Source of the DNA: a virus
DNA length: 15,969 bases
IMG/VR virus record: IMGVR_UViG_3300020217_000047
Coordinates: 1 to 15,969 of that record
Reading direction: 5' to 3' (one strand)
Shown here: positions 1 to 15,969 of the stretch, piece after piece
How the letters are laid out: each line of letters opens with the position of its first letter
Numbering within the stretch: the stretch's first letter is position 1
Program-made: the position numbers and the translations under genes
The notes under the pieces: generated by a model
Database searches by the model: none
What the model was told of the DNA's origin: nothing
The model's input: only the letters and a program-made list of their open reading frames with translations

Positions 1-84
1 CGAGAAAAAAATTGTAGACCTGTCCCACCCCTGTTAACATATATCGAACAAAAATGCAACAAAAAAGTACAACAAATTTTCGAC

Positions 85-102
85 AAAATAAAATTTTATT
101 TT
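85..102. repeat. Perfect 18-bp AT palindrome AAAATAAAATTTTATTTT inside the ITR (mirror copy at 15868..15885)
   Basis: Read directly: a85-a93 is the reverse complement of t94-t102. Confidence 0.9.
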
Positions 103-110
103 CATCAATT

Positions 111-125
111 TTTGTCTAAGACAAA
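111..125. repeat. Inverted repeat TTTGTCT-A-AGACAAA inside the ITR (mirror copy at 15845..15859)
   Basis: Read directly: two 7-bp arms around one central base. It shares the GACAA/TTGTC half-site with the palindrome at 15566..15582. Confidence 0.85.
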
Positions 126-149
126 TTTAAAAATAAAACAAATTTACCC

Positions 150-177
150 TTGCAATATTTTTCTATTTTGGTATACT
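150..177 (+). promoter_or_regulatory. Left-end early promoter, sigma-A-like: TTGCAA, 16-nt spacer, TGgTATACT (extended -10)
   Basis: The -35 TTGCAA (150-155) lies inside the ITR. The -10 TATACT (172-177), preceded by TG at 169-170, lies outside it. An A/T-rich UP-like tract sits upstream, and an SD plus ORF start about 20 nt downstream. Confidence 0.6.
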
Positions 178-209
178 AGACTTATAGAAATTTTAGGGAG
201 GTGTTAAAA

Positions 210-1468: not shown

Positions 1469-1707
1469 TATTCATTATCCCCTTTCTTTTTATCTACATT
1501 TTTTTTAACAACCCTTTTCTTTATAGCATCATTCCCTAAAGCCCCGAACCAATAACCAACAATAACAGTCAAAATGGTTCGCAATGTTTCGTCTTCCACC
1601 CCTGCAAATAAACTATAAGCATAAATACCTAATACTACTAACGTAATGACAAGGTGCGACATGATTAAAACCAACCCCATTCTGTCTACTCTTTTTTCTT
1701 TACTCAT
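1468..1707 (-). CDS. Holin (79 aa, two predicted transmembrane helices, highly charged C-terminus)
   Basis: Hydrophobic stretches GLVLIMSHLVITLVVLGIYAYSLFAG and LRTILTVIVGYWFGALG are followed by a KKRVVKKNVDKKKGDNE tail. SD AGGAGGAG lies upstream. The gene sits immediately before, and overlaps, the endolysin gene. Confidence 0.8.
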   Translation of the reverse strand: MSKEKRVDRMGLVLIMSHLVITLVVLGIYAYSLFAGVEDETLRTILTVIVGYWFGALGNDAIKKRVVKKNVDKKKGDNE

Positions 1708-1766
1708 AAAGTAATCTCCTCCTATAAACCTATTATTTCATTATTTACAAAATATTACAATGACCA

Positions 1767-3293: not shown

Positions 3294-3297
3294 GTTA

Positions 3298-5040
3298 TCA
3301 CCTCCAAGTGTTGTCTAATACATTTTGTGTCATTGGATTAGGTGTGTTATTGTTATGCCAAAAACGTACACCGTTTTCAAATTGTGCTTTCATTTGCTCG
3401 ATAAGCGCAACGTCAACATTAGGAATTGTCCAGCTTCCTGAAAATTGAACATAGTTACATATGGTATGAGTGTTTACAACCACCCTACTGTTGTCGTCAT
3501 TTACCAAAAATCCAAACAAATTATAATATTTTTTCAGCTTGTCCAGTTCATGATCTGTTGGTTTACTATGCTTGATGGTTATCCCATAAAAGTTCTCACT
3601 TCTTTTCAAAGCGTTATCCGTACTTTGATTGGTGATTGTGTTATCCCCTAATGCTAAATCTTTTCGTTCTGCTTGCTGTTGTTTATAATAGTCGTGTTCA
3701 TCTGAAAATCGTCCAAATAGATTAGTAGGGGAAACGTTACTAATTAGGTTAGCCGCGTTATAAAAGCGATCTGATAAAGAAGCATTGCTATCCATGACTG
3801 TACCTACACGATTAGATGCAAGTGTACTTTCTTGATAGGCTCGTACATTCGCACTTTTTGACAAGGCAAGGGTATAGTTGTCTATTAATATAGGTATATC
3901 ATCAAAGTTTTTAAAATATATCGCATCATTTAAAAATGAACCTTCTCGATCATGTACCCCTTTATTTTTTACTTTGTAATTGTTTAAATAAACAGCAATT
4001 TCATTATGATACCCTGTTACAATAAGGCTCTTAAATTCAATCCCTGTATCTTCATTTAATAAACCCATATCGACAAGCAAACTTTGCCCGTCCCATGTGT
4101 ATATTTCTGTTGTAGCGTATTCGTTTCTTAATAAATGCCTATGTTCTTCTGATAGACCGTACAGATTATAAAGACTGTCCATTGAGTAATTCCAGTGTTT
4201 TATGTCCTCGTCAAATTCAGTACGATCCGAACTCCCTCCATCTTTAAAAATGGAAACAAAATCAACGTCAATACTATTAATAGATATTCTTTCAAGGTTA
4301 TCATCATTAATAAAGATAGATGGCACCATAATAATAGAAGTAAAGTTTTGAGTAATCCAAGGGTAAGGTGCTAGTAATTCCATTAAGGTTTTAAAATGAC
4401 GTTGTTTGACATGATACAAGTTGACAGGTGAGGACAGATTGTCATAGGTTAATCCCTCGCTTGTTTCGATTTTTGGATCGTCTACATGACCAAAATCTGC
4501 TGTTAAATCACATGTCGATTGTATAATAATGTCGAACTCGTGGAAGTCATATTGTTTTTCAGAAAAATAATGTTTGCTAGACGTTTTCAAAACATCATCA
4601 TTATTTTTTAATTCCCATAATCGTTCATCATATTCATTTTTTCTTAAATGCCTTCTTGTTACTGATAAATTAGGCAACAAGTGAAGTACAGCACCTTGTG
4701 TAAATGTCATGATAGGGTCAATTAACAAATACACCCTGACATTATTATCATTGATATATTCATAATTAATCACATAAGCATAATACCTTGTTTCAGGTTC
4801 AAAGTCTGATAAAAACGTACAATAATTAACACCCCTAAATTCTTTATAAGGGATAGGCACATCAATCGTACTTCTATCCCTGATAAAGTTAAAACGTAAC
4901 CCTTCTGTGTCTAATGTTTCATAATGTCCACCATGTAGAAAAAAGTCGTCACGTTCGGTATTGTTTTCAAAGTGAATCGTATTTTGAAAATCAATTAAAG
5001 GGGTGTTTTTAAAGAATATAAATTCTGTTAAATCGTTCAT
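3298..5040 (-). CDS. Tail knob / distal tail tube protein (phi29 gp9-like), about 580 aa
   Basis: The C-terminal block ICNYVQFSG...IEQMKAQFENGVRFWH resembles, from memory, the phi29 gp9 C-terminus (NYVQTKD...IFDNGITLWH). Size and position match: it lies between the tail fibre and the tail lysin. I prefer the ATG at 5040 (SD AAAGAGGTG, 6-nt spacer) over the track start, a GTG at 5049 that lies inside that SD. Confidence 0.75.
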   Translation of the reverse strand: MNDLTEFIFFKNTPLIDFQNTIHFENNTERDDFFLHGGHYETLDTEGLRFNFIRDRSTIDVPIPYKEFRGVNYCTFLSDFEPETRYYAYVINYEYINDNNVRVYLLIDPIMTFTQGAVLHLLPNLSVTRRHLRKNEYDERLWELKNNDDVLKTSSKHYFSEKQYDFHEFDIIIQSTCDLTADFGHVDDPKIETSEGLTYDNLSSPVNLYHVKQRHFKTLMELLAPYPWITQNFTSIIMVPSIFINDDNLERISINSIDVDFVSIFKDGGSSDRTEFDEDIKHWNYSMDSLYNLYGLSEEHRHLLRNEYATTEIYTWDGQSLLVDMGLLNEDTGIEFKSLIVTGYHNEIAVYLNNYKVKNKGVHDREGSFLNDAIYFKNFDDIPILIDNYTLALSKSANVRAYQESTLASNRVGTVMDSNASLSDRFYNAANLISNVSPTNLFGRFSDEHDYYKQQQAERKDLALGDNTITNQSTDNALKRSENFYGITIKHSKPTDHELDKLKKYYNLFGFLVNDDNSRVVVNTHTICNYVQFSGSWTIPNVDVALIEQMKAQFENGVRFWHNNNTPNPMTQNVLDNTWR

Positions 5041-5053
5041 TAAAAACACCTCT

Positions 5054-6985
5054 TTAATTTATTAACTCATTTTTACGTTTATTTTTGACAATATTACTTC
5101 CTACCAACCTTGATAATGTTGTGGCAATTGTGTTAGATGATTCTAACAATAATAAATATAAACAATCTCTTAATTTTATTTTATCACCTGCTTGTAAAGA
5201 TGGACCACTACCTCTTGTTATATCACTCTCTTCAACTTCTATAATTGTGTTCAAGTCTTTTAAGTAATCTAGTGTTATCATACATGTCATAATTTTAGTT
5301 AATGATGCTGGATATCCTTGTTCTAAAGAACGAACACTACCTATTGGATTAAAATTTCTTTCGGTATATGTGGCGGGGTTAATACCGTTCAGTAAAACAG
5401 CTGCACCCATTTTTGCATCAATATCATTATACAAAAGGTTATTTGCTTCACTTTCAGTTGGTTCATTTCCTTTTCCAAAAGCACTTGTTAAATTAACAAC
5501 AATTACATTATCAACATATCCATCTAAATTAGCATTATGCATTGCACCCACGTATAATGTATGTGATTGTTCTTCGTTTGTTTCAAAATAAATAGATGCA
5601 CGTTCAAAACCATCTGTTGTTCTTGAAATTGACCCTTCAATAATATTTCCATTAATTCTCGTTTGCAACCCTATTGCTCCTTGTGTGTAATCAATACAAT
5701 TACACATGCAACTAATAAAATATTTTTGTCCACCTAAAAAATTGACTGTTTTTCCAATTTGAGATGAAGTACCGTTTGAGGTTACGTTTAAACTATGAGG
5801 TGCAGAATACCAATACACATCTGAAATGCTAGGGTCACCGCTTAAAATATCCCATGTATCTAAACCTTCTGAAAAATTACCATTTTGTAAGAGGGTTTCA
5901 GCAAAACTAGCTTTTTGTCCATTTGCTAAAGCACGGGTTGCATTATCGTACATTAACCTTGTTGAAGTGTATCTGCTTTCATTAGCATCTAATACAACAC
6001 CTGCATATGACTTTGTTGTGTCTTTTGAGTTTACAATGGAAAATAAGTTCATTGTGTTTTGACCATTTGACGTTAATGTACCAGTTTTTCCTCCCATTAA
6101 TTGGTAATTGTTATCAATAGTACTTTTTAATACGGTACTAACTAAATCTAAATTTCTATTGTTTTTCCCTAAAATTTCTATGGTTCTTTCTTTTGTACCC
6201 CACGTATGGGATATATCTTTATAGGCACTAGCATGCAATCCCATCAACAACATATCTTTAGCTGTTGTTATTTGTTCTTCATGTGGTAATCCATGAGGAT
6301 TCATAAATTTTGTATTAAACATACCTATGTCTTTCGCTTTATCATTCATTGCATCTATAAATGTTTTTTTTGCTAAGGATTCATTAACATTTTCAGAAAA
6401 AGGATATTTAACATAGTTTTCAAATTCATCGAGTTGTTGATTTACTAAATTAATTTCATTACTCACATTATCTGTTGTTTTATTTAGTTTTGATTCAACA
6501 TATTCTGTCGTGTCCTCTAATTTTGTTTCTACATTGGAAGTTGTTTGTGCCAACTGTTGATTAACTGAATTAATATTATCGTCTATTTTTTGATTCAAAC
6601 GACTAACATCTTCTTCACGTTGTTGCACATTTTGTGCCAATTGTTGATTAACTGAATTCAGTTCATTATCAACATAATCAGTTGTTTCATTTAATTTTGT
6701 TTCTACATTGGAAGTTGTATCTTCCATTTCTGTATTTACTCTTTGTTCCATATCCTTTACATCTCGACGGTAATTTTCGACTTGTGCATTATAATTTCCA
6801 GTAAGCGACCAATATTCTTCATTATTAATATCAATACCAGCAGGCACATTTTTCTTTGAAGTATATGAACTACCTTCCCATAATACAATAGAAAGACTTT
6901 CATAATTCTTTTCTTTATCCCAAACTCCATCAGGTTTAGGCACGTACCTATTACCAACATAAATATTTTTGTATTTACTATCCAA
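5054..6985 (-). CDS. Tail fibre / appendage (receptor-binding) protein, 643 aa: N-terminal anchor, repetitive coiled coil, then a circularly permuted S11 DD-peptidase fold with an inserted jelly-roll carbohydrate-binding-like domain
   Basis: The coiled coil has TTSNVETKL and N(S/L)VNQQL(A/D) repeats (aa 85-190). Aa 205-350 carry FIDAMNDKAKDIGMFNTKFMNPHGL...TTAKDM...GGKTGT (KTG box). Aa 362-515 start NGNFSEGLDTWD and end LTSAFGKGNEPT (CBM-like). Aa 525-632 carry YPASLTKIMT (SxxK) and ESSNTIA (SxN). TTG start at 6985 with SD AAAGGGG. Confidence 0.8.
   Translation of the reverse strand: MDSKYKNIYVGNRYVPKPDGVWDKEKNYESLSIVLWEGSSYTSKKNVPAGIDINNEEYWSLTGNYNAQVENYRRDVKDMEQRVNTEMEDTTSNVETKLNETTDYVDNELNSVNQQLAQNVQQREEDVSRLNQKIDDNINSVNQQLAQTTSNVETKLEDTTEYVESKLNKTTDNVSNEINLVNQQLDEFENYVKYPFSENVNESLAKKTFIDAMNDKAKDIGMFNTKFMNPHGLPHEEQITTAKDMLLMGLHASAYKDISHTWGTKERTIEILGKNNRNLDLVSTVLKSTIDNNYQLMGGKTGTLTSNGQNTMNLFSIVNSKDTTKSYAGVVLDANESRYTSTRLMYDNATRALANGQKASFAETLLQNGNFSEGLDTWDILSGDPSISDVYWYSAPHSLNVTSNGTSSQIGKTVNFLGGQKYFISCMCNCIDYTQGAIGLQTRINGNIIEGSISRTTDGFERASIYFETNEEQSHTLYVGAMHNANLDGYVDNVIVVNLTSAFGKGNEPTESEANNLLYNDIDAKMGAAVLLNGINPATYTERNFNPIGSVRSLEQGYPASLTKIMTCMITLDYLKDLNTIIEVEESDITRGSGPSLQAGDKIKLRDCLYLLLLESSNTIATTLSRLVGSNIVKNKRKNELIN
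6519..6718. repeat. Near-identical direct DNA repeats inside the tail-fibre coiled-coil region
   Basis: A 26-nt exact repeat, aattttgtttctacattggaagttgt, occurs at 6519-6544 and 6693-6718. A 28-nt repeat, tttgtgccaa(c/t)tgttgattaactgaatt, occurs at 6544-6571 and 6631-6658 with one mismatch. Confidence 0.9.
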
Positions 6986-6998
6986 TTAAAAAACCCCT

Positions 6999-7397
6999 TT
7001 AATATTTTAAAACTAAATGACCATCATCAGTAGAATCGAATGTGATCGTGTTCCAACTATCAGGAATAACAGCAATAAAATACCCATCATTTAATCCGAA
7101 CCATACAATTTTTGATATTCTAGCCACTATATCAGTTAAATTTCTATCAATCCATTGTTCTAAACTATCTATATATTGTTCAACTAAATAGTCACCTTCT
7201 ACAATTCTTTCCAGTTCACTATTTATTTTTTCCTGCATATCTTTTATGGATTGAGCGAGTTTTTCGTCCTGACACTCTATTCTTTCAGCCATCATTTTTA
7301 GATATTCGTTTACCTTTGCTAAATAATCATAATAACTTTTTGCATTGGTTTTATAATCAGCACGTTTTGTATAAGATGGATAGAAACGTTTCGACAA
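6999..7397 (-). CDS. Structural protein of unknown function (132 aa, helical), probably associated with the neck or tail fibre
   Basis: SD AAAGGAGGGA lies 6 nt upstream of TTG at 7397 (product begins SKRFYPSYTKRADYKTNAKSYYDYLAKV). The track ORF (150 aa, to 7451) would overlap the upstream gene and has no SD. The gene sits between the lower collar and the tail fibre. The SYYDYL motif resembles N-termini of fibre proteins in Gram-positive phages (from memory, weak). Confidence 0.55.
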   Translation of the reverse strand: MSKRFYPSYTKRADYKTNAKSYYDYLAKVNEYLKMMAERIECQDEKLAQSIKDMQEKINSELERIVEGDYLVEQYIDSLEQWIDRNLTDIVARISKIVWFGLNDGYFIAVIPDSWNTITFDSTDDGHLVLKY

Positions 7398-7413
7398 TAT
7401 AAATCCCTCCTTT

Positions 7414-8154
7414 CTAAAAGACTTGCATAAAACAATTCTTTTCAAATTCAATAAAAACAGATTCTAGCAAGCCTTTTATTTTTATCAGATTGTCCATGGA
7501 ATATTGTCGGCTGATTGTATTTCCTTTTGTTTTTCCTATTGTTTCATTTTCATTTTCACCGATAGAAGTATTTTCATTGGTTGCACCGTCTTTACTTTTC
7601 GACAAATTAAACTCATTGGCATAGTCTAGTTCTGTATCATCCAAATTTACATTTACTTGTGATTGTGGTAAATCTGTTCTTGCATTTCTATTTTCGTTTA
7701 CCCCTTCATTTTTACCAGTCTGTTCATTCTTTGTTTTTCCTTTTGTAATACTATCATTTTCACCAGTCTGTTCACTTGTTTGTTCATTGGTTAGGAAAGA
7801 ATTTATATCATAGATATGATTGATAAATTCATCATTCATTAAAAAAGTTGTTCTTACTTTCATTGAAAAATCTTCTATTGTTTGAGCATTGATAGACTTA
7901 TTCAAGAAATGAAGAAGAAAGGTTTTCTTGAAATGTTTATCCGCATTTTCATCTATTAACCGTTCTCCTTTAAAAATTAAACCTTCCATTATATCTTGAA
8001 TATCTTTATCATAATCACTAATCTTTTTCATGAATGAAAAACTAGGGTCATGAAATGTCCATTTCCCATTGTTTTCTAGTTCATTAAACCCTCTTAAATC
8101 TAATTCACTATGGATAACATCATATAGATTAGGTGTTTTACTCAAGGTTTTCAC
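7414..8154 (-). CDS. Lower collar / tail tube protein (phi29 gp11 role)
   Basis: The gene lies immediately downstream of, and overlaps, the portal gene. Its size of about 245 aa is typical of small podovirus lower collars. It has a long polar central segment with EQTG(E/K)N repeats, which could form the tube hairpins. The start is ambiguous: either GTG at 8154, or TTG at 8145, which lies 5 nt after AAGGTGA. Confidence 0.6.
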   Translation of the reverse strand: MKTLSKTPNLYDVIHSELDLRGFNELENNGKWTFHDPSFSFMKKISDYDKDIQDIMEGLIFKGERLIDENADKHFKKTFLLHFLNKSINAQTIEDFSMKVRTTFLMNDEFINHIYDINSFLTNEQTSEQTGENDSITKGKTKNEQTGKNEGVNENRNARTDLPQSQVNVNLDDTELDYANEFNLSKSKDGATNENTSIGENENETIGKTKGNTISRQYSMDNLIKIKGLLESVFIEFEKNCFMQVF

Positions 8155-9103
8155 CTTCTTCTAACTTCTCTAATTCCATTATTTCACTTGCAACTTCATC
8201 ATTATAGATCACTTCAATATTTGTACCATAGCGTTTATTCAATTTCTTGAAAGCATGGTTTCTAGCTTCAATTTTAATATTAGCCATTGAAGTGGTAAAG
8301 GCTCTATTACTTTTCGCTTCCGTATCAGATACCCCACTTGACTTTTCCACCGCTAAACTATTAATTCCTAGCATGTTATTTAGTTCACTGATTTTATTTT
8401 GATATTCTCTTTTCAGTTCTGAAAATTGCATAGCAATGTTATCATTTTGTACACTTATCATGTTTTCGTCTACATCAAAATATTTACCAGTTTTAACAAA
8501 AGGTGAACCATTATATAGATCAGATACAAGTTGAACGATTGATTCGTCATTTTCGTCACCTTTAAAAAAGGTCTGTATTTTTGTTTGCATGGTTAGACTA
8601 TATCGGGATAAAACAATTTCAGCTAGTTCTTTTGTGTAGTGATTAATGATTTCTCTGTCCGACACATAGTTAAAAGTCTTGTTACGAACAACAACAAAAT
8701 TTCCTGTCTGACAATCATCTATATAAGAAATTTCTTTCATTTCGTTTGGGATAAACATTTTAGGAATTGTAAAATGTATATCTTCTTTTGTAATTACATT
8801 ACTAGAAAATAAGTTATCGGGGTTTTCTAGGGTATCTCTAGTTGTTACATACCCTAAAACTTGTACAGCCCCATTTTTTGCTTCCCCTATCACCACGTTA
8901 TAATTTTGTGTAAGAGCAGCTTCTAATTTTAAAAAGTCAATCGCTATATTATCAGGTTTGGTATAACTGAAAAGAGTGGGTAACATTTCCAAATAACGTA
9001 ACGAAAAAATTCGTATAAATTGTTGCTTATGTTGCACCACTCTTTCTTTTAGTTTGTCAGCTAAATCTAAACCAATCCCACCTCTTTCGATAAAGTTTGT
9101 CAT
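8138..9103 (-). CDS. Portal / upper collar connector protein (phi29 gp10-like), 321 aa
   Basis: Blocks align by eye with the remembered phi29 p10 sequence. [45 protein letters not shown] matches [66 protein letters not shown]...[12 protein letters not shown] matches [20 protein letters not shown]...NELYGLNVKVKF. The C-terminus is acidic, and the gene sits directly after the capsid gene. Confidence 0.85.
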   Translation of the reverse strand: [321 protein letters not shown]

Positions 9104-9104
9104 A

Positions 9105-10283
9105 TTAATTACCTACTTTAATAGAATTGTAGAATGGGGAAACAGATTTTGAACTGTAGTAATGTAACCAATACGTTACTTCGTCAAATTCTCCATTATA
9201 AAAAGGTGTTTTTAACATGTCTTTTGTATAACGTTTGTATCGTAATTTATTAATGTCGAAAATAAAAGCAAATTGATCGGTCTCAGGTTTAATTTCAACG
9301 ACTTTATCTGTAAAATCAGTTAATGAAGAAACATCAAACGTAATTACAACACCTGATGGTATGGTATCTCCCATTTCAATTTGATAGTCGTTATAGGTTC
9401 TGAAGTAATTAATGGTATCTTGACTAGCTACCTCAACATCTGCTGTGGTACGATACACCCCTCCTAGATCATCAAAAGAAATGATACGGTTAGACAGGTC
9501 TAAACCTTCTGCTTGATACGTTCCTGCTAGTTTGGTATCTAATAGATACGTTTTCATTTTGTCGTTTGTTAGGATAGCGGTATTGTCTAGTTTTGTAGAC
9601 GTTGTGTATCGACCTAATTCACCTCCACTTGCTTTGTTCGCTTCATTATACTTGTCAGAGTTATTTTGAATATTTAAGATAGCTTCAAACGTATTTTTAA
9701 ATACTTCTTCTGCTGATGTGGCAGGTCTAGTATCTTTTGTTACATTTAAAGCATAGTCTACTAACATGCCTTTGATTTCTCTTTCTTCTGATACGTTAAT
9801 ATCGGATATACGTTTCTTATAAACAGATAGAGCATAAGAAACGGCATCACCTAAAGTAGAAAAGTTCAAACGAACATCATTATTATTTAAGGTAAACTTT
9901 TGTTTCTTTAAAATTCCCGTACCATATAATTTACTAGCAATTTTAGGGTAGTTTCTTTTTAACATTAATTCTTCACTTTTCGATAGGTTCATAGAAATTG
10001 GAACACTATCCAAAATCACGTATTCCTCTGAATACTGTCCAATAAAATCTTCTTCTTTTGCCAACCAGTCAAATCGGTTGCCTAGATCAGCGTGAATTAA
10101 AAGCGTTTCATTGATTTTAGGAAAAAGATATTTATTAATAAACGTTTCAAATTGCTTACCTACACTTGTCCAGTTTGTTCCAAACGTCCAACCTGCATTA
10201 AAGTCATTATTAAACTGTTGCAAGGCTGATAAAGCTGAACCTGATAAAACTTTATTTGTTGTCTTTTTTGGTGTTGTTGCCAT
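9105..10283 (-). CDS. Major capsid protein (392 aa)
   Basis: Called from synteny: scaffold-like gene, microgene, this gene, then portal. The size is typical of small Picovirinae-type capsid proteins. A strong SD (ATAGGAGGT) lies upstream. No motif-level proof can be obtained by eye. Confidence 0.7.
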   Translation of the reverse strand: MATTPKKTTNKVLSGSALSALQQFNNDFNAGWTFGTNWTSVGKQFETFINKYLFPKINETLLIHADLGNRFDWLAKEEDFIGQYSEEYVILDSVPISMNLSKSEELMLKRNYPKIASKLYGTGILKKQKFTLNNNDVRLNFSTLGDAVSYALSVYKKRISDINVSEEREIKGMLVDYALNVTKDTRPATSAEEVFKNTFEAILNIQNNSDKYNEANKASGGELGRYTTSTKLDNTAILTNDKMKTYLLDTKLAGTYQAEGLDLSNRIISFDDLGGVYRTTADVEVASQDTINYFRTYNDYQIEMGDTIPSGVVITFDVSSLTDFTDKVVEIKPETDQFAFIFDINKLRYKRYTKDMLKTPFYNGEFDEVTYWLHYYSSKSVSPFYNSIKVGN

Positions 10284-10438
10284 TAATTATTACCTCCTAT
10301 ATTTTTAATTATACGTGTATATTCATCTTGTGACGAATTTTTAATCGTCATGTTATTATTTAATTCTCTGGACTTATCTAATTTGTTATCTTTAAAATCA
10401 GACTTCATCATAGGTCTAGTATTGTTAATTTCTGCCAT
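10283..10438 (-). CDS. Hypothetical 51-aa protein (MAEINNTRPMMKSDFKDNKLDKSRELNNNMTIKNSSQDEYTRIIKNIGGNN) between the scaffold-like and capsid genes
   Basis: Translated by hand; not in the ORF track. SD TAGGAGGT lies 7 nt upstream of ATG at 10438. The TAA stop overlaps the capsid ATG (TAATG), and the capsid SD lies within its last codons. Confidence 0.6.
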   Translation of the reverse strand: MAEINNTRPMMKSDFKDNKLDKSRELNNNMTIKNSSQDEYTRIIKNIGGNN

Positions 10439-10450
10439 GTTTAAAACCTC

Positions 10451-10690
10451 CTATTCAATATTTAATAATTGTTCAACTTCGTCTATTTCTTCTTCTGTAG
10501 GTTCTGTTTCTTCATTGTTATTATTTTCATCTTCATTATTGTTTTCTTCCTTGTTGTTAGTTTGTGAAAGACCTTCAAGAGTTTGTTTTGTTTCCTGTAA
10601 TTGCGTTTGCAAATCTGTTAAAAAACTTTCTAAATCTGCTTTTGTTTTCAATTTTAATCCTTCTTGTTTATCTTTGTTATTTTCTGCCAT
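10451..10690 (-). CDS. Acidic helical protein, candidate scaffolding protein (79 aa from the ATG at 10690)
   Basis: SD AGGAGGTG lies 6 nt upstream of ATG at 10690; the track GTG at 10699 is part of that SD. The product has an amphipathic helical N-half and an extremely acidic, Asn-rich C-half (NNKEENNNEDENNNNEETEPTEEEIDEVEQ). It sits just upstream of the capsid gene, like phi29 gp7. Confidence 0.5.
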   Translation of the reverse strand: MAENNKDKQEGLKLKTKADLESFLTDLQTQLQETKQTLEGLSQTNNKEENNNEDENNNNEETEPTEEEIDEVEQLLNIE

Positions 10691-10712
10691 TTTTGACACC
10701 TCCTGTAATTAA

Positions 10713-10741
10713 ATTATAAACGAAAAGAAGGAATTAATCAA
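10713..10741 (-). promoter_or_regulatory. Candidate promoter for the morphogenesis/lysis genes: TTGATT, 17-nt spacer, TATAAT
   Basis: On the - strand the -35 TTGATT (10741-10736) overlaps the polymerase stop codon region. The consensus -10 TATAAT (10718-10713) lies about 15 nt upstream of the scaffold-gene SD. Confidence 0.4.
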
Positions 10742-13019
10742 TATAATCCCTTCTTATCATATCTTCTTCCATTTCTAAATAGATTAATGGTTTTTTCATT
10801 TTCACTTCATTGGTAACAGGGTATAAATCAGATAAAGAAAAAGTTCCAAGTGTCGATTCGATATACATAATGTCAGGTGTATTACCTTCCATTTCTTCTC
10901 TTATTTTGTTGAATAATTTTTGTTTGAACGTATCGTAATTTTCGTCATAGGAAAAAATTCGATAGCCTTGACCTATGGATAGTTCTGTACTAGCAGGATA
11001 AATTGAAATGGTTCCTTGTTCATTGTAGATTGCTTTATTTGTTTGGATTGTAACCCCATCTGAAAACTGTGTTTTTATAAATTCGTCAAAAGACATATTT
11101 CGATCAAAGCTATCATGTGGCACACCACCACTTTTAATGATGATTTCTCCATCAACAACATAAGCATATTTTTTATGATTGAGTACATAGAATTGTTCGA
11201 TTTCATCATCTTGTATATCCCACTTTCCTAAATGGTAGGGATGGAATAGATTAGGTGATAGTTTATGCCTGATTTTACTTTTAAAGTATAAGCTGTCTGT
11301 ATCGGTATAGATCAGGTTATCATCTATTTCTTTTTGAGTAAGATATTTCAAAGGATCCAATAAGTTATATAGGGATACACTTGTTACGAATATACTAAAT
11401 ACAATATTTCTTTCATTGTTCTTATATCCATTCGGAACATTTTCCAAACTGTCACCATGATAACGGAATAAATTAAAATAAGGTCGTAAAGCTGGAATAC
11501 CGTATAAACCGTTCAATAATACTTTGGAATTGTCTACCTCTTCATTTGAAAATTTTTCCTTGTTTTCTTCTTCGGTTATTTCAATATCGTAAGGGCTGTT
11601 CATGACTATTTTTTTATTAAGTTTTCCTTGTGTTTTAATATAGTAATTTTCTTCAATATGTTGCCTGCTACCAAAGTACCTACATTCAAACGTGACATAG
11701 GAAAGAACATGTAACTGTTTAAATTCTAAGCCTGTGATATTCTCTATCATTTTAATCGTATATGTGTTGATATTAATAAAGTCATTCTTGGAATAGTATT
11801 TTACTAAGATTTGACGTAATAAGCGACTGTTTATCCTGTCTATGATTTCATTATCAAAACGTTTTTTGGTCATTCGGTAGAGAGTATATTCTTCGTCACG
11901 TTGATGAATCGGTATACTCTTTTCTATTTCATACGATTCATAACTTTTTAAAAATGTTGGTACTTTAAAATCATGCATAGCATATGGATAACTAGAATTA
12001 ATATCTATCGAAAACATTTTCTCTTTGATGATTTTACCAACATATTTTTGGTTATACATGTTCAGCCCACCACTATAAAAAGGCTTTAAATAATCATAAA
12101 AATTTTCGTTTGCAAATTTATAATTGGTATACTTGATATGTTTTCCATCTTTATTGTCACCAACTTTTTTAAGCAATTGATAACTTGTAAGATCATTGTC
12201 ATTATAAAAGTCTAATATATTAGATGTAAATGTGATTTTACTATAATCAAATCCTTTGAAAATTTGAGAATAATATTTAACAGAATAGGCAAGAATGATA
12301 ACATCATTCTCAATATAAGTTAGTTCATCTTTATCTAAGTTATTAAACACCTCATGAGCATACTCGTGGGCTTCTTCTTCCGTCATGTCATACGGTTTAT
12401 TGTATTTGCTATAGTTAAAATCCGTCTTTAGCTGATCGTCTGTTAAAACGTTAATCCGCTTTAATTTATGACCTAGTGTTGCAATAGAAACATTTGTTTT
12501 CATAAAGTTATCTGTTGTAAAAAAATGGATTCCTTTCAGAAAGAAAATTAATTCTAAGTTATTGCTTGACTTGATCCTCTTTTCTAAAATAATACCTTGC
12601 TGTTTTTCTTCTTTTGTCACCTTTGACGATTTAACCGTTAGGGTGTTTCCTTCTTCTGTTGCGTTTTTCAAGTACATATTTTTAACTATGGTTTCAGGGT
12701 AATAATATAAAATATCATGTCTTAAAAAATGATTGTCGTATTTGTTATTATTATGTGCTATTAGTTCTACCTTCGGGGTTGTTTTCCACTTTGACCAGGC
12801 ATTGAATATCGTTTCAAAGAATTGCCAAAAATTAGGGAATTTACTAATGTGTAGATCGTTACCGTCAAAATATGAAACAGCTAGGGAGTAGGTGACGTTC
12901 TTATATTTTGATGGTTTTTCCTTTCCTTCTTCTTCATTGTATTGTAAAGTTTCTATGTCAAAGAATAAACGTATATTCTTTTCTTTTCGATATTTGAGTA
13001 AATAATCTTTTAAGATCAT
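10734..13019 (-). CDS. Protein-primed family-B DNA polymerase (761 aa)
   Basis: All hallmark motifs are in the canonical order: Exo I FFDIETL, Exo II HNNNKYDNHFL, Exo III YIENDVIIL, motif A DINSSYPYAM (Dx2SLYP), motif B KVLLNGLYG (Kx3NSxYG), motif C YTDTDS and KxY HKKYAY. The ATG overlaps the ATPase stop (ATGA). Confidence 0.95.
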   Translation of the reverse strand: MILKDYLLKYRKEKNIRLFFDIETLQYNEEEGKEKPSKYKNVTYSLAVSYFDGNDLHISKFPNFWQFFETIFNAWSKWKTTPKVELIAHNNNKYDNHFLRHDILYYYPETIVKNMYLKNATEEGNTLTVKSSKVTKEEKQQGIILEKRIKSSNNLELIFFLKGIHFFTTDNFMKTNVSIATLGHKLKRINVLTDDQLKTDFNYSKYNKPYDMTEEEAHEYAHEVFNNLDKDELTYIENDVIILAYSVKYYSQIFKGFDYSKITFTSNILDFYNDNDLTSYQLLKKVGDNKDGKHIKYTNYKFANENFYDYLKPFYSGGLNMYNQKYVGKIIKEKMFSIDINSSYPYAMHDFKVPTFLKSYESYEIEKSIPIHQRDEEYTLYRMTKKRFDNEIIDRINSRLLRQILVKYYSKNDFININTYTIKMIENITGLEFKQLHVLSYVTFECRYFGSRQHIEENYYIKTQGKLNKKIVMNSPYDIEITEEENKEKFSNEEVDNSKVLLNGLYGIPALRPYFNLFRYHGDSLENVPNGYKNNERNIVFSIFVTSVSLYNLLDPLKYLTQKEIDDNLIYTDTDSLYFKSKIRHKLSPNLFHPYHLGKWDIQDDEIEQFYVLNHKKYAYVVDGEIIIKSGGVPHDSFDRNMSFDEFIKTQFSDGVTIQTNKAIYNEQGTISIYPASTELSIGQGYRIFSYDENYDTFKQKLFNKIREEMEGNTPDIMYIESTLGTFSLSDLYPVTNEVKMKKPLIYLEMEEDMIRRDYID

Positions 13020-14248
13020 AGTCCAAACTTCTTCAATAAGCCTTTTTTCGTTTGATCTATATAATTATCTTTATACTGTTTTTCTTTCTTATCAAAGTTC
13101 GATTCGTTTTGATTCATTGACATATATTTTGAAATGATTTTTGTTATCTTTAATTCGTTTAAAGCGTGAAAGCTATTTGTTACTAAATCTTTTGTAAAAT
13201 TGTTGTCGAATAAATAAAATTCTTTGCTATAGCGTTTCTTGTGTTTAAAATCGAAAAATGTTTCATCCAAATAAATGCTTTCATCTGTATTGTCTTTTAA
13301 CATTAAATTGAAGTCATAATGTTCACTAAAATAGATAACAGATAAAAGGATCAGGTTATTTTCTTCATTAAAAGTTATTTTCAAATAGTTGTCCTGTAGC
13401 TTTACAACTATAAAACGTGCGTTTTTCTTTAAAGCATTACGTTGTTTTTCTGTAATCAGGTTAAAAGAATTCGTTTTAAATTCCCCATGGGTCATACTGT
13501 CGTTTTCTTCATTAAAAGCTCTTAAATTACGTTGTTCATTTGCGGTTTCATTTTTATGCATTTCTAAGACAATATTATCATGTTTCCGTATGGTATTAAT
13601 AGGGTGTTTTTCAAGGATATTAAATAAGTCCAAATTAGATAAAACAGGAGATGAAAAGTTGACCGCATTTCCTAAATAAATTATTTTCGGGAATTTAATC
13701 AAAGGACGGTCCTCTTCACTTTTTCGGTCAATACTTCCATATATTGTTTTTAACCGTTCCCATTCATCAGGTAAATAATCACCTTCTAATGCTAAAAATT
13801 CATCATATACGATAACAGGAAAGTCCTCTAAATAGTTAGAATGATATTTTAAATCGGTTGCTTGATTTAAGTCTGTAATAATTCCTACCTCTTTATCTTT
13901 ATAAAGAATCGTAATATAGAAGTCAGTACGTAAAAACATAAAGTCCTTTAAATTGTATATTTTTGACTTGTCAAGTATTTTAATTAAAAACTTCTGATAG
14001 GCAAATCTCACCGTATACCTTCTCGCTAAAAGAGTAAACCGTATACCAAAATCAATAGATAGTTTTATAAGAGCATGAATATAGTTAAATGATTTTCCGT
14101 CACTTCGATTTGAAATACTTATATAATGGTCTACATCTTCATCTAATAAGTAATCTAGTAATTCAATTTGATTGTAACGTTCGGGTACGTTTTTCTTTCT
14201 GAAATTTTCTATGAATTTATAATACTTTTGTTCTTCTTTATTGTTCAT
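13016..14248 (-). CDS. DNA encapsidation (packaging) ATPase, phi29 gp16-type (410 aa)
   Basis: It has a Walker A-like NRSDGKS and a Walker B VIVYDEF. SD TAGGAGGT lies upstream. Size and motif pattern fit the encapsidation proteins of small protein-primed podoviruses. Confidence 0.75.
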   Translation of the reverse strand: MNNKEEQKYYKFIENFRKKNVPERYNQIELLDYLLDEDVDHYISISNRSDGKSFNYIHALIKLSIDFGIRFTLLARRYTVRFAYQKFLIKILDKSKIYNLKDFMFLRTDFYITILYKDKEVGIITDLNQATDLKYHSNYLEDFPVIVYDEFLALEGDYLPDEWERLKTIYGSIDRKSEEDRPLIKFPKIIYLGNAVNFSSPVLSNLDLFNILEKHPINTIRKHDNIVLEMHKNETANEQRNLRAFNEENDSMTHGEFKTNSFNLITEKQRNALKKNARFIVVKLQDNYLKITFNEENNLILLSVIYFSEHYDFNLMLKDNTDESIYLDETFFDFKHKKRYSKEFYLFDNNFTKDLVTNSFHALNELKITKIISKYMSMNQNESNFDKKEKQYKDNYIDQTKKGLLKKFGL

Positions 14249-14259
14249 CTTGTAACCTC

Positions 14260-14676
14260 CTATAAGTCAAAAGATGATGCTGTTGGTAGATATTCAGCAT
14301 ACCACACAACATTATATCTGTAATCTTCTGCCGGTAATTGTCGTAAAAAGTCACGAATGAGATTAATTAGTTTTTGAAAATTCCCATTCGCTTCAAGATG
14401 CATGGTAAGAAAAATATTTGCTATATGCATATTTTTGTAGCTTGAATTGTTAGAGGATGGGGTTTGTATCATGTTTGCTAATTGGGTTAATGTATCTCTT
14501 ATTTTTCCACCATGATTAATGATAGATCGTGCCTGTACCCATGATATAGTATACCTTGTATTTACTTGTCCAAAATAAGAAAATAATTCGGGGATATTGT
14601 TATCTATAAAACGTTCAAATTGTGTTTGTAGTTCGGTATCGGCAAAGCGATAATTGAAAAAGTTAGAAGCTGTCAT
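14260..14676 (-). CDS. Hypothetical protein (138 aa), first gene of the replication/packaging cluster
   Basis: The ORF has an ATG start and a weak SD (AAAGGAAA). I recognise no motif. Confidence 0.6.
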   Translation of the reverse strand: MTASNFFNYRFADTELQTQFERFIDNNIPELFSYFGQVNTRYTISWVQARSIINHGGKIRDTLTQLANMIQTPSSNNSSYKNMHIANIFLTMHLEANGNFQKLINLIRDFLRQLPAEDYRYNVVWYAEYLPTASSFDL

Positions 14677-14692
14677 ATTTATTTTCCTTTCT

Positions 14693-14729
14693 AAAAATAA
14701 AAAGCCTGTTAGTCATTAACAGGCTTTTT
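14693..14729 (-). terminator. Strong hairpin terminator between the right early genes and the replication cluster; structurally bidirectional
   Basis: GCCTGTTA (14704-14711) pairs with TAACAGGC (14717-14724) around a 5-nt loop, extendable through flanking A/T runs. On the - strand the hairpin is followed by TTTTTATTTTT, and on the + strand by TTTTT. Confidence 0.75.
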
Positions 14730-14735
14730 ATAGGG

Positions 14736-15260
14736 TTATTTTTGTTCCAAGTGGGATAAAGCTAGATCAATTTGCACACCGTTTTGTCGTTTCGTTCCTG
14801 TTACTTTGACATAAATCTTTTTGTAATTTTCGTCATTCGGATAACCAAACGTTTGAAAAAGGTTTTTAATTGTATGATAAACAGATTTTGAAGAAGTGGC
14901 ATAGTAACTACCATTATCTTTTATAGTTGTTGTTACCCCATTTGTAGTTACCCCTGTCTTTTCGTCAAAACTCTGGTATGGATTCATGTAAACTTCATCT
15001 ATTCCAATTGTTTCATTAATCATTCGACCAAGTGGCTTTACAAGATCATTATCTTGTGAATTAAAGACTTTGTATAATTCAATTTGTTTTTCTTGTGTTT
15101 CAGGAATATGGGAATGAAATTTATGATACTTCATTTCTCTTCTAAACGTTCCATCTTGTAATTGCTTTACTACATAATTTTCTGTTTCCTCAACTACTCT
15201 TTCCTTTACAATCATTTCACCAGTTTCTGTGTTTACCATCATTTCATTTTTTTCAGTCAT
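14736..15260 (-). CDS. Early protein (174 aa), possibly a phage-type ssDNA-binding protein; function uncertain
   Basis: SD AGGAGGAA lies upstream. The overall pattern (acidic N-terminus, then ...IGIDEVY...DEKTGVTTNGVTTTIKDNGSYYATSSKSVYHTIKNLFQTFG...) resembles, from memory, the lactococcal/staphylococcal phage SSB family. It occupies an early position next to the replication genes. Confidence 0.45.
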   Translation of the reverse strand: MTEKNEMMVNTETGEMIVKERVVEETENYVVKQLQDGTFRREMKYHKFHSHIPETQEKQIELYKVFNSQDNDLVKPLGRMINETIGIDEVYMNPYQSFDEKTGVTTNGVTTTIKDNGSYYATSSKSVYHTIKNLFQTFGYPNDENYKKIYVKVTGTKRQNGVQIDLALSHLEQK

Positions 15261-15293
15261 TTCATTTCCTCCTGTTTAAAGTCTAGTAGACTA

Positions 15294-15521
15294 TTATTTT
15301 TTAAGTTCTTCTAATTGTTCAATAGATAATTGGATTATTACATCTTCTTTTCTTACTTGAAAAATAGATTCAAATTCGATACCGTTTTTTTCTAAAATTT
15401 CACTAGCTTGATATTTTGAAATTCTATCTTTTTCATTGGTATGAAATACACCTAGTTCATTATCTACTGTTTCAAAGTAAATATTTTGTAGTTTAATAGG
15501 AACTTCCATTAATTCTGACAA
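15294..15521 (-). CDS. Hypothetical early protein (75 aa), TTG start
   Basis: SD GAAAGGTGGTG lies about 9 nt upstream of TTG at 15521. An in-frame ATG at 15509 is too far from the SD. Confidence 0.6.
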   Translation of the reverse strand: MSELMEVPIKLQNIYFETVDNELGVFHTNEKDRISKYQASEILEKNGIEFESIFQVRKEDVIIQLSIEQLEELKK

Positions 15522-15552
15522 AATTTTTCACCACCTTTCATGTGATAGATTT

Positions 15553-15582
15553 AATATATCATTTATTGACAATATTTGTCAA
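15553..15582 (-). promoter_or_regulatory. Second right-end promoter: TTGACA, 18-nt spacer, TGaTATATT (extended -10), with a 17-bp palindromic operator over the -35
   Basis: On the - strand the consensus -35 TTGACA is at 15582-15577, TG at 15561-15560 and TATATT at 15558-15553. The palindrome TTGACAA-TAT-TTGTCAA spans 15566-15582. Confidence 0.55.
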
Positions 15583-15618
15583 ATAGTAATTTGTTATTTA
15601 TTAAAAAATTTTATTCCA

Positions 15619-15765
15619 TTATTTTTTTAAGTATGAAATTCTATTATTTCTTAAAATATATAGATTTGATATTTTTATAATACCTGTTTCTTTTGAATCA
15701 AAGTTACAAAAGTAAATTACTGATCTTTCATTTCCTTCTTGTTCGACAATTCCTATTGGTTTCAT
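15619..15765 (-). CDS. Hypothetical early protein (48 aa: MKPIGIVEQEGNERSVIYFCNFDSKETGIIKISNLYILRNNRISYLKK)
   Basis: Translated by hand; not in the ORF track. SD AAAGGAGGG (15777-15785) lies 11 nt upstream of ATG at 15765. Stop is TAA at 15619-15621. It is the first gene downstream of the right ITR promoter. Confidence 0.6.
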   Translation of the reverse strand: MKPIGIVEQEGNERSVIYFCNFDSKETGIIKISNLYILRNNRISYLKK

Positions 15766-15792
15766 ATTTGTCTTTCCCTCCTTTCACTATCT

Positions 15793-15820
15793 ATTATACT
15801 ATTTTTCACAAATATTGCAA
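15793..15820 (-). promoter_or_regulatory. Right-end early promoter: TTGCAA, 16-nt spacer, TATAAT
   Basis: The -35 TTGCAA (15815-15820, itself palindromic) lies inside the ITR and is the mirror of 150-155. The consensus -10 TATAAT (- strand, 15798-15793) is in unique DNA. The SD of the 48-aa ORF follows within about 10 nt. Confidence 0.65.
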
Positions 15821-15969
15821 GGGTAAATTTGTTTTATTTTTAAATTTGTCTTAGACAAAAATTGATGAAAATAAAATTTTATTTTGTCGAAAATTTGTTG
15901 TACTTTTTTGTTGCATTTTTGTTCGATATATGTTAACAGGGGTGGGACAGGTCTACAATTTTTTTCTCG
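15810..15969. repeat. Right inverted terminal repeat (160 bp)
   Basis: Exact reverse complement of 1..160, checked base by base. Confidence 0.97.

What the first reader, a model, noticed from the sequence alone, without database searches (positions are those of the whole stretch)
13016..15260. A protein-primed polymerase but no recognisable terminal-protein gene; the packaging ATPase occupies the position upstream of the polymerase
The polymerase has every motif of the protein-primed B family, and the genome has ITRs reaching the ends, so a terminal protein (TP) is expected. In phi29 and its relatives the TP gene (about 230-270 aa) sits immediately upstream of the polymerase gene. Here that slot holds the Walker-A/B encapsidation ATPase, translationally coupled to the polymerase by an ATGA overlap. 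No ORF of TP-like size or sequence exists anywhere in the genome. The only unassigned proteins in the replication half are 138, 174, 75 and 48 aa long. Either one of these is a novel miniature TP (the 138-aa orphan heading the ATPase-polymerase cluster is the positional candidate), or the priming function lies elsewhere, for example in the extra segments of the long polymerase.
Basis: partly seen in the sequence, partly recalled or inferred. Interest (0 to 1): 0.65.

Follow-up and report, generated by a model that had tools for sequence, protein, structure and literature searches.

The report
Small candidate terminal protein, standard Rountreeviridae layout
This small phage genome looks as if it lacks the protein that primes its DNA replication, but its layout is the normal one for its family, and the 138-residue gene ahead of the packaging ATPase belongs to the family already proposed, though never proven, to be that primer.

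Summary
The window is a complete 15,969-bp picovirus with 160-180-nt inverted terminal repeats (ITRs). It carries a phi29-type protein-primed polymerase (761 aa) and a Walker A/B packaging ATPase (410 aa) directly upstream, joined by an ATGA overlap. No unassigned ORF has the size or sequence of a phi29-type terminal protein (TP).

This is not an anomaly. Small ORF, ATPase, polymerase is the standard order in Rountreeviridae: Andhra, P68, C1, Efmus3, Kurthia phage P1 and the six metagenomic relatives long enough to show it.

The 138-aa ORF belongs to phrog_6099, the family of Andhra gp7 and P68 gp8. Andhra gp7 was proposed as the TP in 2022; the same-slot gene of Enterococcus phage Idefix, IDF_05, was proposed in 2019. 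The 174-aa "orphan" is the SSB.

New here: across 109 representative family members (127-178 aa) the only invariant residue is a tyrosine (Y126) in a C-terminal [W/Y]N[I/V]V[W/Y]Y motif. It is the obvious candidate for the DNA-linking residue. Two thirds of members, this one included, lack the basic N-terminal extension of the staphylococcal forms.

No similarity to phi29 TP was detected by sequence or fold, but two controls show these tests cannot detect it. TP function remains unproven. Interest is modest.

The parts
14260..14676 (-). 138-aa ORF, the candidate terminal protein. It is a short form of the phrog_6099 family (Andhra gp7, P68 gp8).
   Evidence: phrog_6099 at 3.5e-5. BLASTP against Andhra gp7 gives 24% identity end to end, E 1e-4. 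A profile search retrieves the staphylococcal members at 1e-35. AF2 model: pLDDT 78.6, pTM 0.73, helical. The only fold matches are Rountreeviridae proteins. An RBS (AAAGGAAAA) lies upstream of the ATG.
14299..14316 (-). Codons for Y121-N-V-V-W-Y126, the C-terminal family motif. Y126 is the inferred DNA-linking residue.
   Evidence: Y126 is the only invariant column in 109 representatives. N122 is kept in 101/109 and V124 in 97/109. The Tyr lies 4-33 residues (median 7) from the C-terminus.
13016..14248 (-). phi29 gp16-type DNA encapsidation ATPase (410 aa).
   Evidence: phrog_2150 at 1.7e-78. Walker A SNRSDGKS at residue 46 and Walker B VIVYDE at 145. 47% identical to the Andhra and P68 ATPases.
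10734..13019 (-). Protein-primed family-B DNA polymerase (761 aa). Its start overlaps the ATPase stop (ATGA).
   Evidence: phrog_1907 at 1e-123. All Exo and Pol motifs are present. A profile hits only phi29 polymerase in the PDB, E 6e-9.
14736..15260 (-). Single-stranded DNA-binding protein (174 aa).
   Evidence: phrog_6243 at 3e-36. Pfam Phi29_Phage_SSB at 4e-5, 24.2 bits against a cut-off of 25.
14697..14731 (-). Terminator hairpin between the SSB gene and the 138-aa gene. It is followed by a T-run on the - strand.
   Evidence: 16-pair stem. The - strand reads AAAAAGCCTGTTAATGACTAACAGGCTTTTTATTTTT. That it attenuates read-through into the TP-ATPase-Pol unit is inference.
15294..15521 (-). 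75-aa acidic early ORF (pI 4.6), function unknown.
   Evidence: No PHROG or Pfam hit. It has homologues in L017 (59%) and in Kurthia phage MP1_01 (30%), but none was detected in the staphylococcal phages. The strongest promoter-like site lies upstream, at 15582-15553.
15619..15765 (-). 48-aa basic early ORF (pI 9.3), function unknown.
   Evidence: No family hit. 43% identical to an ORF in L017 only.
1..180 (.). Left inverted terminal repeat, the presumed replication origin.
   Evidence: It contains the CCCACCCC motif shared with the ends of Kurthia P1, P68 and Andhra.
15790..15969 (.). Right inverted terminal repeat.

Best explanation
The window is a complete genome of a Rountreeviridae-type picovirus. 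Its replication and packaging operon has the family's normal order: SSB, terminator, 138-aa protein, packaging ATPase, polymerase.

The 138-aa protein is the terminal protein. It is a short form of the Andhra gp7 / P68 gp8 family. I infer the following mechanism:
1. The protein binds the polymerase.
2. It presents the hydroxyl of its invariant C-terminal tyrosine (Y126) in the polymerase active site.
3. It receives the first dNMP opposite the 3' end of the ITR.
4. It stays covalently attached to each 5' end.
5. As in phi29, it then also serves as the handle that the adjacent ATPase recognises for packaging unit-length DNA. This would explain why the two genes travel together.

Shown here: family membership, synteny, the invariant Tyr, and the absence of any other universal unassigned gene. 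Inferred: the covalent linkage, the identity of the priming residue, and the packaging role.
For: 1. Homology to the published TP candidate. The 138-aa protein matches phrog_6099 at 3.5e-5. Andhra gp7 and P68 gp8 match the same family at 2e-65 and 3e-89. The pairwise alignment with Andhra gp7 runs end to end.
2. Literature. Andhra gp7 was proposed as the 5' TP from its AlphaFold topology, from density in the tail knob and from its detection in virions (PMC9710869). Idefix IDF_05, in the same slot, was proposed from its size and pI (PMC6356687).
3. Strict synteny. All 7 metagenomic members sampled lie directly upstream of a 354-420-aa ATPase-sized gene; in the six contigs long enough, a roughly 760-aa polymerase follows. 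An HMM of the family hits exactly one ORF per genome, always that one, including Enterococcus Efmus3 gp08.
4. Elimination. SSB, ATPase, polymerase and this family are the only early genes shared across the family. The 51-aa ORF is the homologue of Andhra gp19, the capsid lining protein. The 75-aa and 48-aa ORFs are clade-restricted.
5. The invariant Tyr. Y126 is the only invariant column among 109 clusters that are at most 50% identical to each other. No Ser or Thr column is conserved.
6. Fast divergence relative to the polymerase, as expected for TPs: 28% against 59% identity to the Kurthia phage.
7. Gene order. SSB, then X, then polymerase mirrors phi29's p5, (p4), p3, p2.
Against: - No member of the family has been shown biochemically to be DNA-linked.
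- There is no similarity to phi29-type TPs by Pfam, by hhalign (probability 0.2%) or by Foldseek against the PDB. These negatives carry little weight. The Andhra-type control model also misses 2EX3, and the proven Cp-1 TP is equally dissimilar to the phi29 TP profile.
- The protein is near neutral (pI 6.3). It lacks the basic N-terminal segment and the acidic, DNA-mimicking character of the phi29 TP.
- The Tyr motif is modelled with low confidence (pLDDT 55-69).
- Mass spectrometry of Andhra virions also detected non-structural proteins, so gp7's presence there is weak evidence.
Confidence: 0.65

Rival explanations
1. The 138-aa family is not the primer. It is some other accessory of the operon: a small-terminase-like packaging adaptor for the adjacent ATPase, or a p4-like early/late transcription regulator. 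The real TP is then one of the tiny fast-evolving early proteins (75 aa or 48 aa here) or a still unrecognised product.
For: A small gene directly upstream of the large packaging ATPase is the classic TerS-TerL order. In phi29 the gene after the SSB is the regulator p4. P68 gp8 gives a non-significant hit to a TerS PHROG at E 0.087. No pRNA was found, so some adaptor for the motor might be needed. The protein is neither basic nor acidic.
Against: Neither predicted model matches any TerS or p4 structure in the PDB. The window protein has no TerS or p4 family hit. The 75-aa and 48-aa ORFs are not conserved across the family, whereas a TP must be universal. An invariant Tyr a few residues from a flexible C-terminus is not a known feature of TerS or p4.
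Confidence: 0.2
2. Priming lies in the polymerase itself. The roughly 190 extra residues relative to phi29 polymerase, notably a conserved insertion of about 65 aa in the thumb plus a C-terminal tail, supply a self-priming residue or replace the TP.
For: The polymerase is 761 aa against 575 aa. The thumb insertion (residues about 655-730) is strongly conserved and holds invariant Ser, Thr and Tyr residues (I664, N666, S672, Y674, T678, Y686, Y719). TP-polymerase fusions exist in fungal linear plasmids (own knowledge).
Against: There is no N-terminal extension, because ExoI starts at residue 21. The polymerase shows no similarity to TP profiles or to Pfam TP models. The extra residues are split among at least five insertions rather than forming one TP-sized domain. 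A dedicated candidate gene is universally present next to the polymerase.
Confidence: 0.05
3. The genome is not protein-primed. The ITRs serve another end-replication or packaging mechanism.
For: No experimental data exist for this metagenomic phage. The extreme ends are not verified.
Against: The polymerase is phi29-type with all its motifs. ITRs with a conserved terminal motif are shared with the ends of P68, Andhra and Kurthia phage P1. The literature treats this phage group as carrying covalently linked terminal proteins, although I found no direct experimental demonstration for it. The assembly appears to lack about 8 terminal nt, as expected for blocked ends.
Confidence: 0.03

Closest known systems
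Staphylococcus phage Andhra gp7 / P68 gp8 / Enterococcus Efmus3 gp08 (PHROG 6099), the putative 5' terminal protein of Rountreeviridae. Idefix IDF_05 occupies the same slot but was not sequence-tested here.
   Same: Detectable sequence homology. The same slot immediately upstream of the packaging ATPase and polymerase. The same helical core. The same C-terminal [W/Y/F]N[I/V]V[W/Y/F]Y motif with an invariant Tyr.
   Different: The window protein is 138 aa and near neutral (pI 6.3). It lacks the basic N-terminal extension of about 26-29 aa found in the staphylococcal forms (pI about 9). It is only 20-24% identical to them.
Bacillus phage phi29 terminal protein gp3 (Pfam PF05435; PDB 2EX3)
   Same: The presumed role (inferred). 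Placement downstream of the SSB gene and in the same early operon as the polymerase. A largely helical protein.
   Different: Half the size (138 against 266 aa). No sequence or profile similarity. No Foldseek match. No N-terminal DNA-binding domain. The candidate linking residue is a C-terminal Tyr rather than a loop Ser (Ser232). An ATPase gene lies between it and the polymerase gene.
Kurthia phage vb_KgiM_P1 (ON637248), Rountreeviridae
   Same: The closest sequenced isolate. Identical gene order and an almost single-strand gene layout. The genome is 15.9 kb. Its polymerase is 59% identical, and its MP1_04 (129 aa) is 28% identical to the 138-aa protein.
   Different: The Kurthia phage carries a p6-like dsDNA-binding protein (phrog_6370). 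No counterpart was recognised in the window.
Tectivirus PRD1 and Bam35 terminal proteins
   Same: They prime from a tyrosine hydroxyl (own knowledge), as proposed here for Y126.
   Different: They are about 245-260 aa, are unrelated in sequence and belong to a different virus lineage. They were not tested here.

Membership tests
Rountreeviridae putative TP family (PHROG 6099; Andhra gp7 / P68 gp8) | Significant sequence or profile match to the family | tested here: met
   phrog_6099 at 3.5e-5 over residues 7-129. BLASTP against Andhra gp7 gives E 1e-4. A family profile retrieves the staphylococcal members at 1e-35. There are 125 clusters in the representative library, all 117-193 aa.
Rountreeviridae putative TP family (PHROG 6099; Andhra gp7 / P68 gp8) | Gene immediately upstream of the encapsidation ATPase and the protein-primed polymerase | tested here: met
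   In the window the order is 14260-14676, then 13016-14248, then 10734-13019. The same order is seen in Andhra, P68, Kurthia P1, Efmus3 and 7/7 metagenomic contigs.
Rountreeviridae putative TP family (PHROG 6099; Andhra gp7 / P68 gp8) | C-terminal [W/Y/F]N[I/V]V[W/Y/F]Y motif with an invariant Tyr | tested here: met
   YNVVWY at residues 121-126. The Tyr is kept in 109/109 members.
Rountreeviridae putative TP family (PHROG 6099; Andhra gp7 / P68 gp8) | Basic N-terminal extension and high pI (the criterion used for Idefix IDF_05) | tested here: not met
   pI 6.26 and no extension. 74 of 109 family representatives are also short forms, so this feature marks a subgroup and does not define the family.
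Rountreeviridae putative TP family (PHROG 6099; Andhra gp7 / P68 gp8) | Predicted fold shared with family members | tested here: met
   Foldseek against BFVD: Staphylococcus phage CSA13 protein at E 3.4e-4 and TM 0.56, Enterococcus Ef6.3 protein at TM 0.55, and SCH111.
phi29-type terminal protein (Pfam PF05435, PDB 2EX3) | Sequence or profile match to Phi-29_GP3 | tested here: not met
   No Pfam hit for the window protein or for any of the 109 relatives. hhalign against 8 Salasmaviridae TPs gives probability 0.2%. The proven Cp-1 TP also fails this test.
phi29-type terminal protein (Pfam PF05435, PDB 2EX3) | Fold similar to phi29 gp3 (intermediate domain plus four-helix priming domain) | tested here: inconclusive
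   Foldseek against the PDB gives no hit to 2EX3. The control model of the Andhra-type protein, for which similarity was published after manual domain rotation, also gives none.
phi29-type terminal protein (Pfam PF05435, PDB 2EX3) | Size of about 230-270 aa and a gene adjacent to the polymerase gene | tested here: not met
   138 aa, and the ATPase gene intervenes.
Terminal proteins in general (functional class) | Covalent phosphodiester link of a Ser, Thr or Tyr to the 5' terminal nucleotide, and priming by the cognate polymerase | not testable with these tools
   This needs virion DNA or purified proteins.
Protein-primed family-B DNA polymerase (phi29 gp2 type) | ExoI-III, YxGG, motifs A, B and C, KxY, and TPR1/TPR2 insertions | tested here: met
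   The motifs are located. The alignment with phi29 gp2 shows sequence in the TPR1 and TPR2 positions. phi29 polymerase is the only PDB hit. The Pfam DNA_pol_B_2 model itself gave no hit.
Small terminase subunit (rival for the 138-aa protein) | Match to a TerS family or fold | tested here: not met
   No PHROG or Pfam TerS hit. No TerS structure appears among the Foldseek PDB hits.

The most novel reading that the evidence does not exclude
The phrog_6099 family is an independently evolved minimal terminal protein with a core of about 120 aa. That would make it smaller than any TP characterised so far. It primes from an invariant tyrosine on a short C-terminal tail, not from a loop serine. In most lineages, including this one, it does without any DNA-binding N-terminal domain. 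It also doubles as the recognition handle of the adjacent packaging ATPase in a motor that has no pRNA.
Probability: 0.35. Interest if true: 0.55.

Novelty: new member of a known kind. Interest (0 to 1): 0.3.

Why it matters
The terminal protein of Rountreeviridae has never been demonstrated biochemically. This family includes the staphylococcal and enterococcal picoviruses favoured for phage therapy and engineering.

This window adds a divergent short-form member. Comparison across the family singles out one invariant tyrosine, which gives a direct mutational test. It also shows that the basic N-terminal segment, previously used as a criterion, is dispensable in most lineages.

If confirmed, this would define a minimal protein primer useful for synthetic linear replicons. 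As a genome-scan anomaly, however, the "missing TP" is already explained by the known family layout.

Tried and rejected
- **Pfam.** Scans of all replication-half ORFs and of 109 family members found no TP family, only scattered noise.
- **hhalign.** The family profiles gave nothing against a profile of 8 Salasmaviridae TPs or against the Cp-1 TP. The phi29-TP profile against the Cp-1 TP gave nothing either, so the test lacks power.
- **Foldseek against the PDB.** Neither the 138-aa model nor the Andhra-type control model matched 2EX3 or any TerS.
- **PDB sequence search.** A search with the family profile returned noise.
- **Polymerase profile against the TP profile.** Nothing, so a fused TP is rejected.
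- **C1 orf5.** This is the same-slot gene of Streptococcus phage C1. Neither hmmsearch nor hhalign related it to the family (probability 1.5%), although it ends in a similar hydrophobic-x-Tyr tail.
- **75-aa ORF against the Kurthia p6-like protein.** No similarity.
- **Rfam.** No pRNA was found. A weak Thr_leader hit is only the terminator hairpin.
- **Public runs.** Only assembled contigs from plant metagenomes were available. They do not cover the termini, so the true ends could not be checked.
- **Nelson 2003 paper on phage C1.** It could not be retrieved.
- **Not possible here.** A Pol + 138-aa complex prediction could not be run with the single-chain predictor.

Full report
**What the window is**

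The 15,969-bp window is a complete small podovirus genome. Its two ends are inverted repeats, 180 nt at 96% identity and exact over the first 160 nt. Apart from two small ORFs at the left end, all its genes lie on the - strand. PHROG scans assign almost every large ORF:

| ORF | Assignment |
|---|---|
| 254 aa | endolysin |
| 508 aa | tail lysin |
| 583 aa | tail knob |
| 643 aa | appendage / receptor-binding protein |
| 246 aa | lower collar |
| 321 aa | portal |
| 392 aa | major capsid protein |
| 761 aa | DNA polymerase |
| 410 aa | encapsidation ATPase |
| 174 aa | SSB |

The nearest sequenced isolate is Kurthia phage vb_KgiM_P1 (Rountreeviridae, 15.9 kb), which has the same gene order. 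DNA-level matches are short stretches to staphylococcal and enterococcal Rountreeviridae. The sequence occurs in plant-metagenome runs.

**Checking the observation**

The polymerase carries every motif of the phi29-type enzymes, and its only relative among solved structures is phi29 DNA polymerase. The ATPase has Walker A and B motifs and matches phrog_2150. Its stop codon overlaps the polymerase start in ATGA. No ORF matches Pfam's phi29 TP model. The only ORFs in the 230-270-aa range are the endolysin and the lower collar protein.

So the descriptive core is correct, with two errors. The 174-aa protein is a clear SSB (phrog_6243 at 3e-36; Pfam Phi29_Phage_SSB at 4e-5). The 138-aa protein is not an orphan, because it matches phrog_6099 at 3.5e-5.

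**The layout is the family norm**

The order small ORF, ATPase, polymerase is found in:
- Andhra (gp7, gp8, gp9)
- P68 (ORF8, ORF9, ORF10)
- Kurthia P1 (MP1_04, 05, 06)
- Streptococcus C1 (orf5, orf6, orf7)
- Enterococcus Efmus3 (gp08, gp09, gp10)

The literature already discusses the arrangement. Lossouarn et al. 2019 noted for phage Idefix that an encapsidation gene separates the putative TP gene IDF_05 from the polymerase gene (PMC6356687). Hawkins et al. 2022 proposed Andhra gp7 (167 aa) as the 5' TP. Their grounds were an AlphaFold model with the topology of phi29 gp3, density in the tail knob, and detection in virions (PMC9710869). Neither assignment has been tested biochemically.

**What the 138-aa protein is**

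Andhra gp7 and P68 gp8 are the core of phrog_6099, at 2e-65 and 3e-89. The window protein aligns with Andhra gp7 from end to end at 24% identity, E 1e-4. A profile built from both groups retrieves them together.

A profile search of 1.84 billion representative proteins found 125 clusters, all 117-193 aa. None is near the size of a phi29 TP. I sampled seven divergent members in their contigs, and each lies directly upstream of an ATPase-sized gene of about 410 aa (cut at 354 aa by the contig end in one case). In the six contigs long enough to show it, a roughly 760-aa polymerase-sized gene follows. An HMM of the family hits exactly one ORF per Rountreeviridae genome, always the one in that slot. 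It hits nothing in phi29.

In an alignment of 109 representatives (127-178 aa, at most 50% identical to one another), the only invariant column is Tyr126. It sits in a C-terminal motif [W/Y/F]-N-[I/V]-V-[W/Y/F]-Y, in which Asn is kept in 101/109 and Val in 97/109. No Ser or Thr column is conserved. The Tyr lies 4-33 residues (median 7) from the C-terminus. Even the most divergent same-slot proteins end in a comparable tail: Efmus3 FSIIAY, L023 LNFVFY, C1 orf5 FVVVKY.

The family comes in two forms. Of the 109 representatives, 28 are long forms with an N-terminal extension of about 29 aa carrying a net charge of +6.5; these include the staphylococcal phages. Another 74 are short forms without an extension, including the window protein, which has pI 6.3.

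**Tests against known terminal proteins**

- Pfam finds nothing for any of the 109 members.
- hhalign against a profile of eight Salasmaviridae TPs gives probability 0.2%.
- The AF2 model (pLDDT 78.6, pTM 0.73, mostly helical) has no significant match in the PDB, and 2EX3 is absent from the list.
- Against predicted viral structures, the model matches only the equivalent proteins of Staphylococcus phages CSA13 and SCH111 and Enterococcus phage Ef6.3.

Two controls show that these negatives have little weight. A model of an Andhra-type member also fails to retrieve 2EX3. The experimentally established TP of Cp-1 is just as dissimilar to the phi29 TP profile, at probability 1.6%. Membership of the phi29 TP family is therefore not met, while TP function is neither supported nor excluded by these tests.

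**Why I still favour the TP reading (confidence 0.65)**

1. A protein-primed polymerase with ITRs needs a primer protein, and that protein must be present in every member of the family.
2. The only universally shared early genes are SSB, this family, the ATPase and the polymerase.
3. The other small ORFs are either structural or clade-restricted. The 51-aa ORF is the homologue of Andhra gp19, the capsid lining protein. The acidic 82-aa ORF sits in the core/scaffold position. The 75-aa and 48-aa ORFs are clade-restricted.
4. The family diverges much faster than the polymerase, which is typical of TPs: 28% against 59% identity to the Kurthia phage.
5. The position after the SSB and in the polymerase operon mirrors phi29's p5, p4, p3, p2.
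6. An invariant hydroxyl residue on a flexible C-terminal tail is what a priming residue would look like.

A terminator hairpin between the SSB gene and the 138-aa gene (14697-14731) suggests a design I can only infer. SSB would be made abundantly, and the TP, ATPase and polymerase at a lower level by read-through. Linkage of the TP and ATPase genes makes functional sense if, as in phi29, the packaging motor recognises TP-DNA.

**Rivals**

- The family could instead be a packaging adaptor in the classic small-before-large terminase order, or a p4-like regulator, with the true TP hidden among the tiny early ORFs (confidence 0.2). No TerS or p4 similarity was found.
- Priming by the polymerase's extra segments is unlikely (0.05). 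There is no N-terminal extension and no TP-like sequence. The extra residues are split into several insertions shared by all Rountreeviridae polymerases. One of these, a thumb insertion of about 65 aa, is notably conserved and remains unexplained.
- Replication that is not protein-primed is very unlikely (0.03).

**Ends**

The termini of Kurthia P1, P68 and Andhra align with the window's ends through a shared C-rich motif (CCCACCCC). Kurthia P1 and Andhra begin (A)AATA and P68 begins ATATA, about 8 nt before the window's first base. The assembly therefore probably lacks a few terminal nucleotides. This is common for protein-blocked ends. Raw reads were not available to check it.

**Verdict**

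The window adds a new short-form member. The useful new point is the single invariant C-terminal tyrosine, which turns the assignment into a simple mutational and biochemical test.

Noticed in passing
window 19-38 and 15932-15951; L001 1-45; L003 1-50; L002 55-100: A C-rich motif (CCCACCCC or CCCCACCCC) lies in the otherwise AT-rich ITR. It is conserved at about the same distance from the ends in Kurthia P1, P68 and Andhra. In the alignment the window's ends start about 8 nt later than those of its relatives (Kurthia P1 and Andhra begin (A)AATA, P68 ATATA), so the assembly probably lacks a few terminal nucleotides. The motif may be an origin or packaging element.
   Followed up: partly
L002 (KY442063, phage Andhra) 1-54 and the last ~54 nt: Both ends of the deposited Andhra genome carry Illumina adapter sequence (...GTGACTGGAGTTCAGACGTGTGCTCTTCCGATCT) before the phage sequence starts with AAATA.
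   Followed up: no
window 10830-11057 (- strand; polymerase residues ~655-730): There is a thumb insertion of about 65 aa and a C-terminal tail of about 27 aa that phi29 polymerase lacks. The insertion is strongly conserved in all ten Rountreeviridae polymerases aligned (motif SIYNEQGTISIYPS; invariant I664, N666, S672, Y674, T678, Y686, Y719). Its function is unknown.
   Followed up: partly
window 14697-14731: A 16-bp hairpin with T-runs on both sides lies between the SSB gene and the 138-aa gene. It is a likely (bidirectional) intrinsic terminator or attenuator that splits the early region into two units. The weak Rfam Thr_leader hit (14695-14815, E 0.07) is this hairpin.
   Followed up: partly
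whole window: Rfam finds no phi29-type pRNA at E<=1 although the packaging ATPase is gp16-like. How the motor docks without a pRNA is open for this family.
   Followed up: partly
window 201-541 (+) versus 704-15765 (-): All genes except two small ORFs at the left end are on one strand, as in Kurthia phage P1. Staphylococcal Rountreeviridae instead have two convergent arms.
   Followed up: no
window 10283-10438 and 10451-10699 (- strand): The 51-aa ORF is a homologue of Andhra gp19, the capsid lining protein (tblastn E 6e-9; phrog_6289). The very acidic 82-aa ORF (pI 4.2) sits in the position of the Andhra gp20 core/scaffold protein.
   Followed up: partly
window 4989-5063: A 28-nt inverted repeat (89% complementary, 19-nt spacer) lies at the junction of the tail-knob gene and the 643-aa gene. 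A related G-rich element (AAAGGGGTGTTTTT) recurs at 6979-7003. These may be terminators or regulatory sites.
   Followed up: no
L026 2927-3550 (Streptococcus phage C1 orf5): The same-slot gene of phage C1 (207 aa) has a basic N-terminus and ends ...FGFVVVKYSEMGLM. The family HMM does not detect it, but it shares the hydrophobic-strand-Tyr C-terminal tail. It may be a very divergent member of the family.
   Followed up: partly
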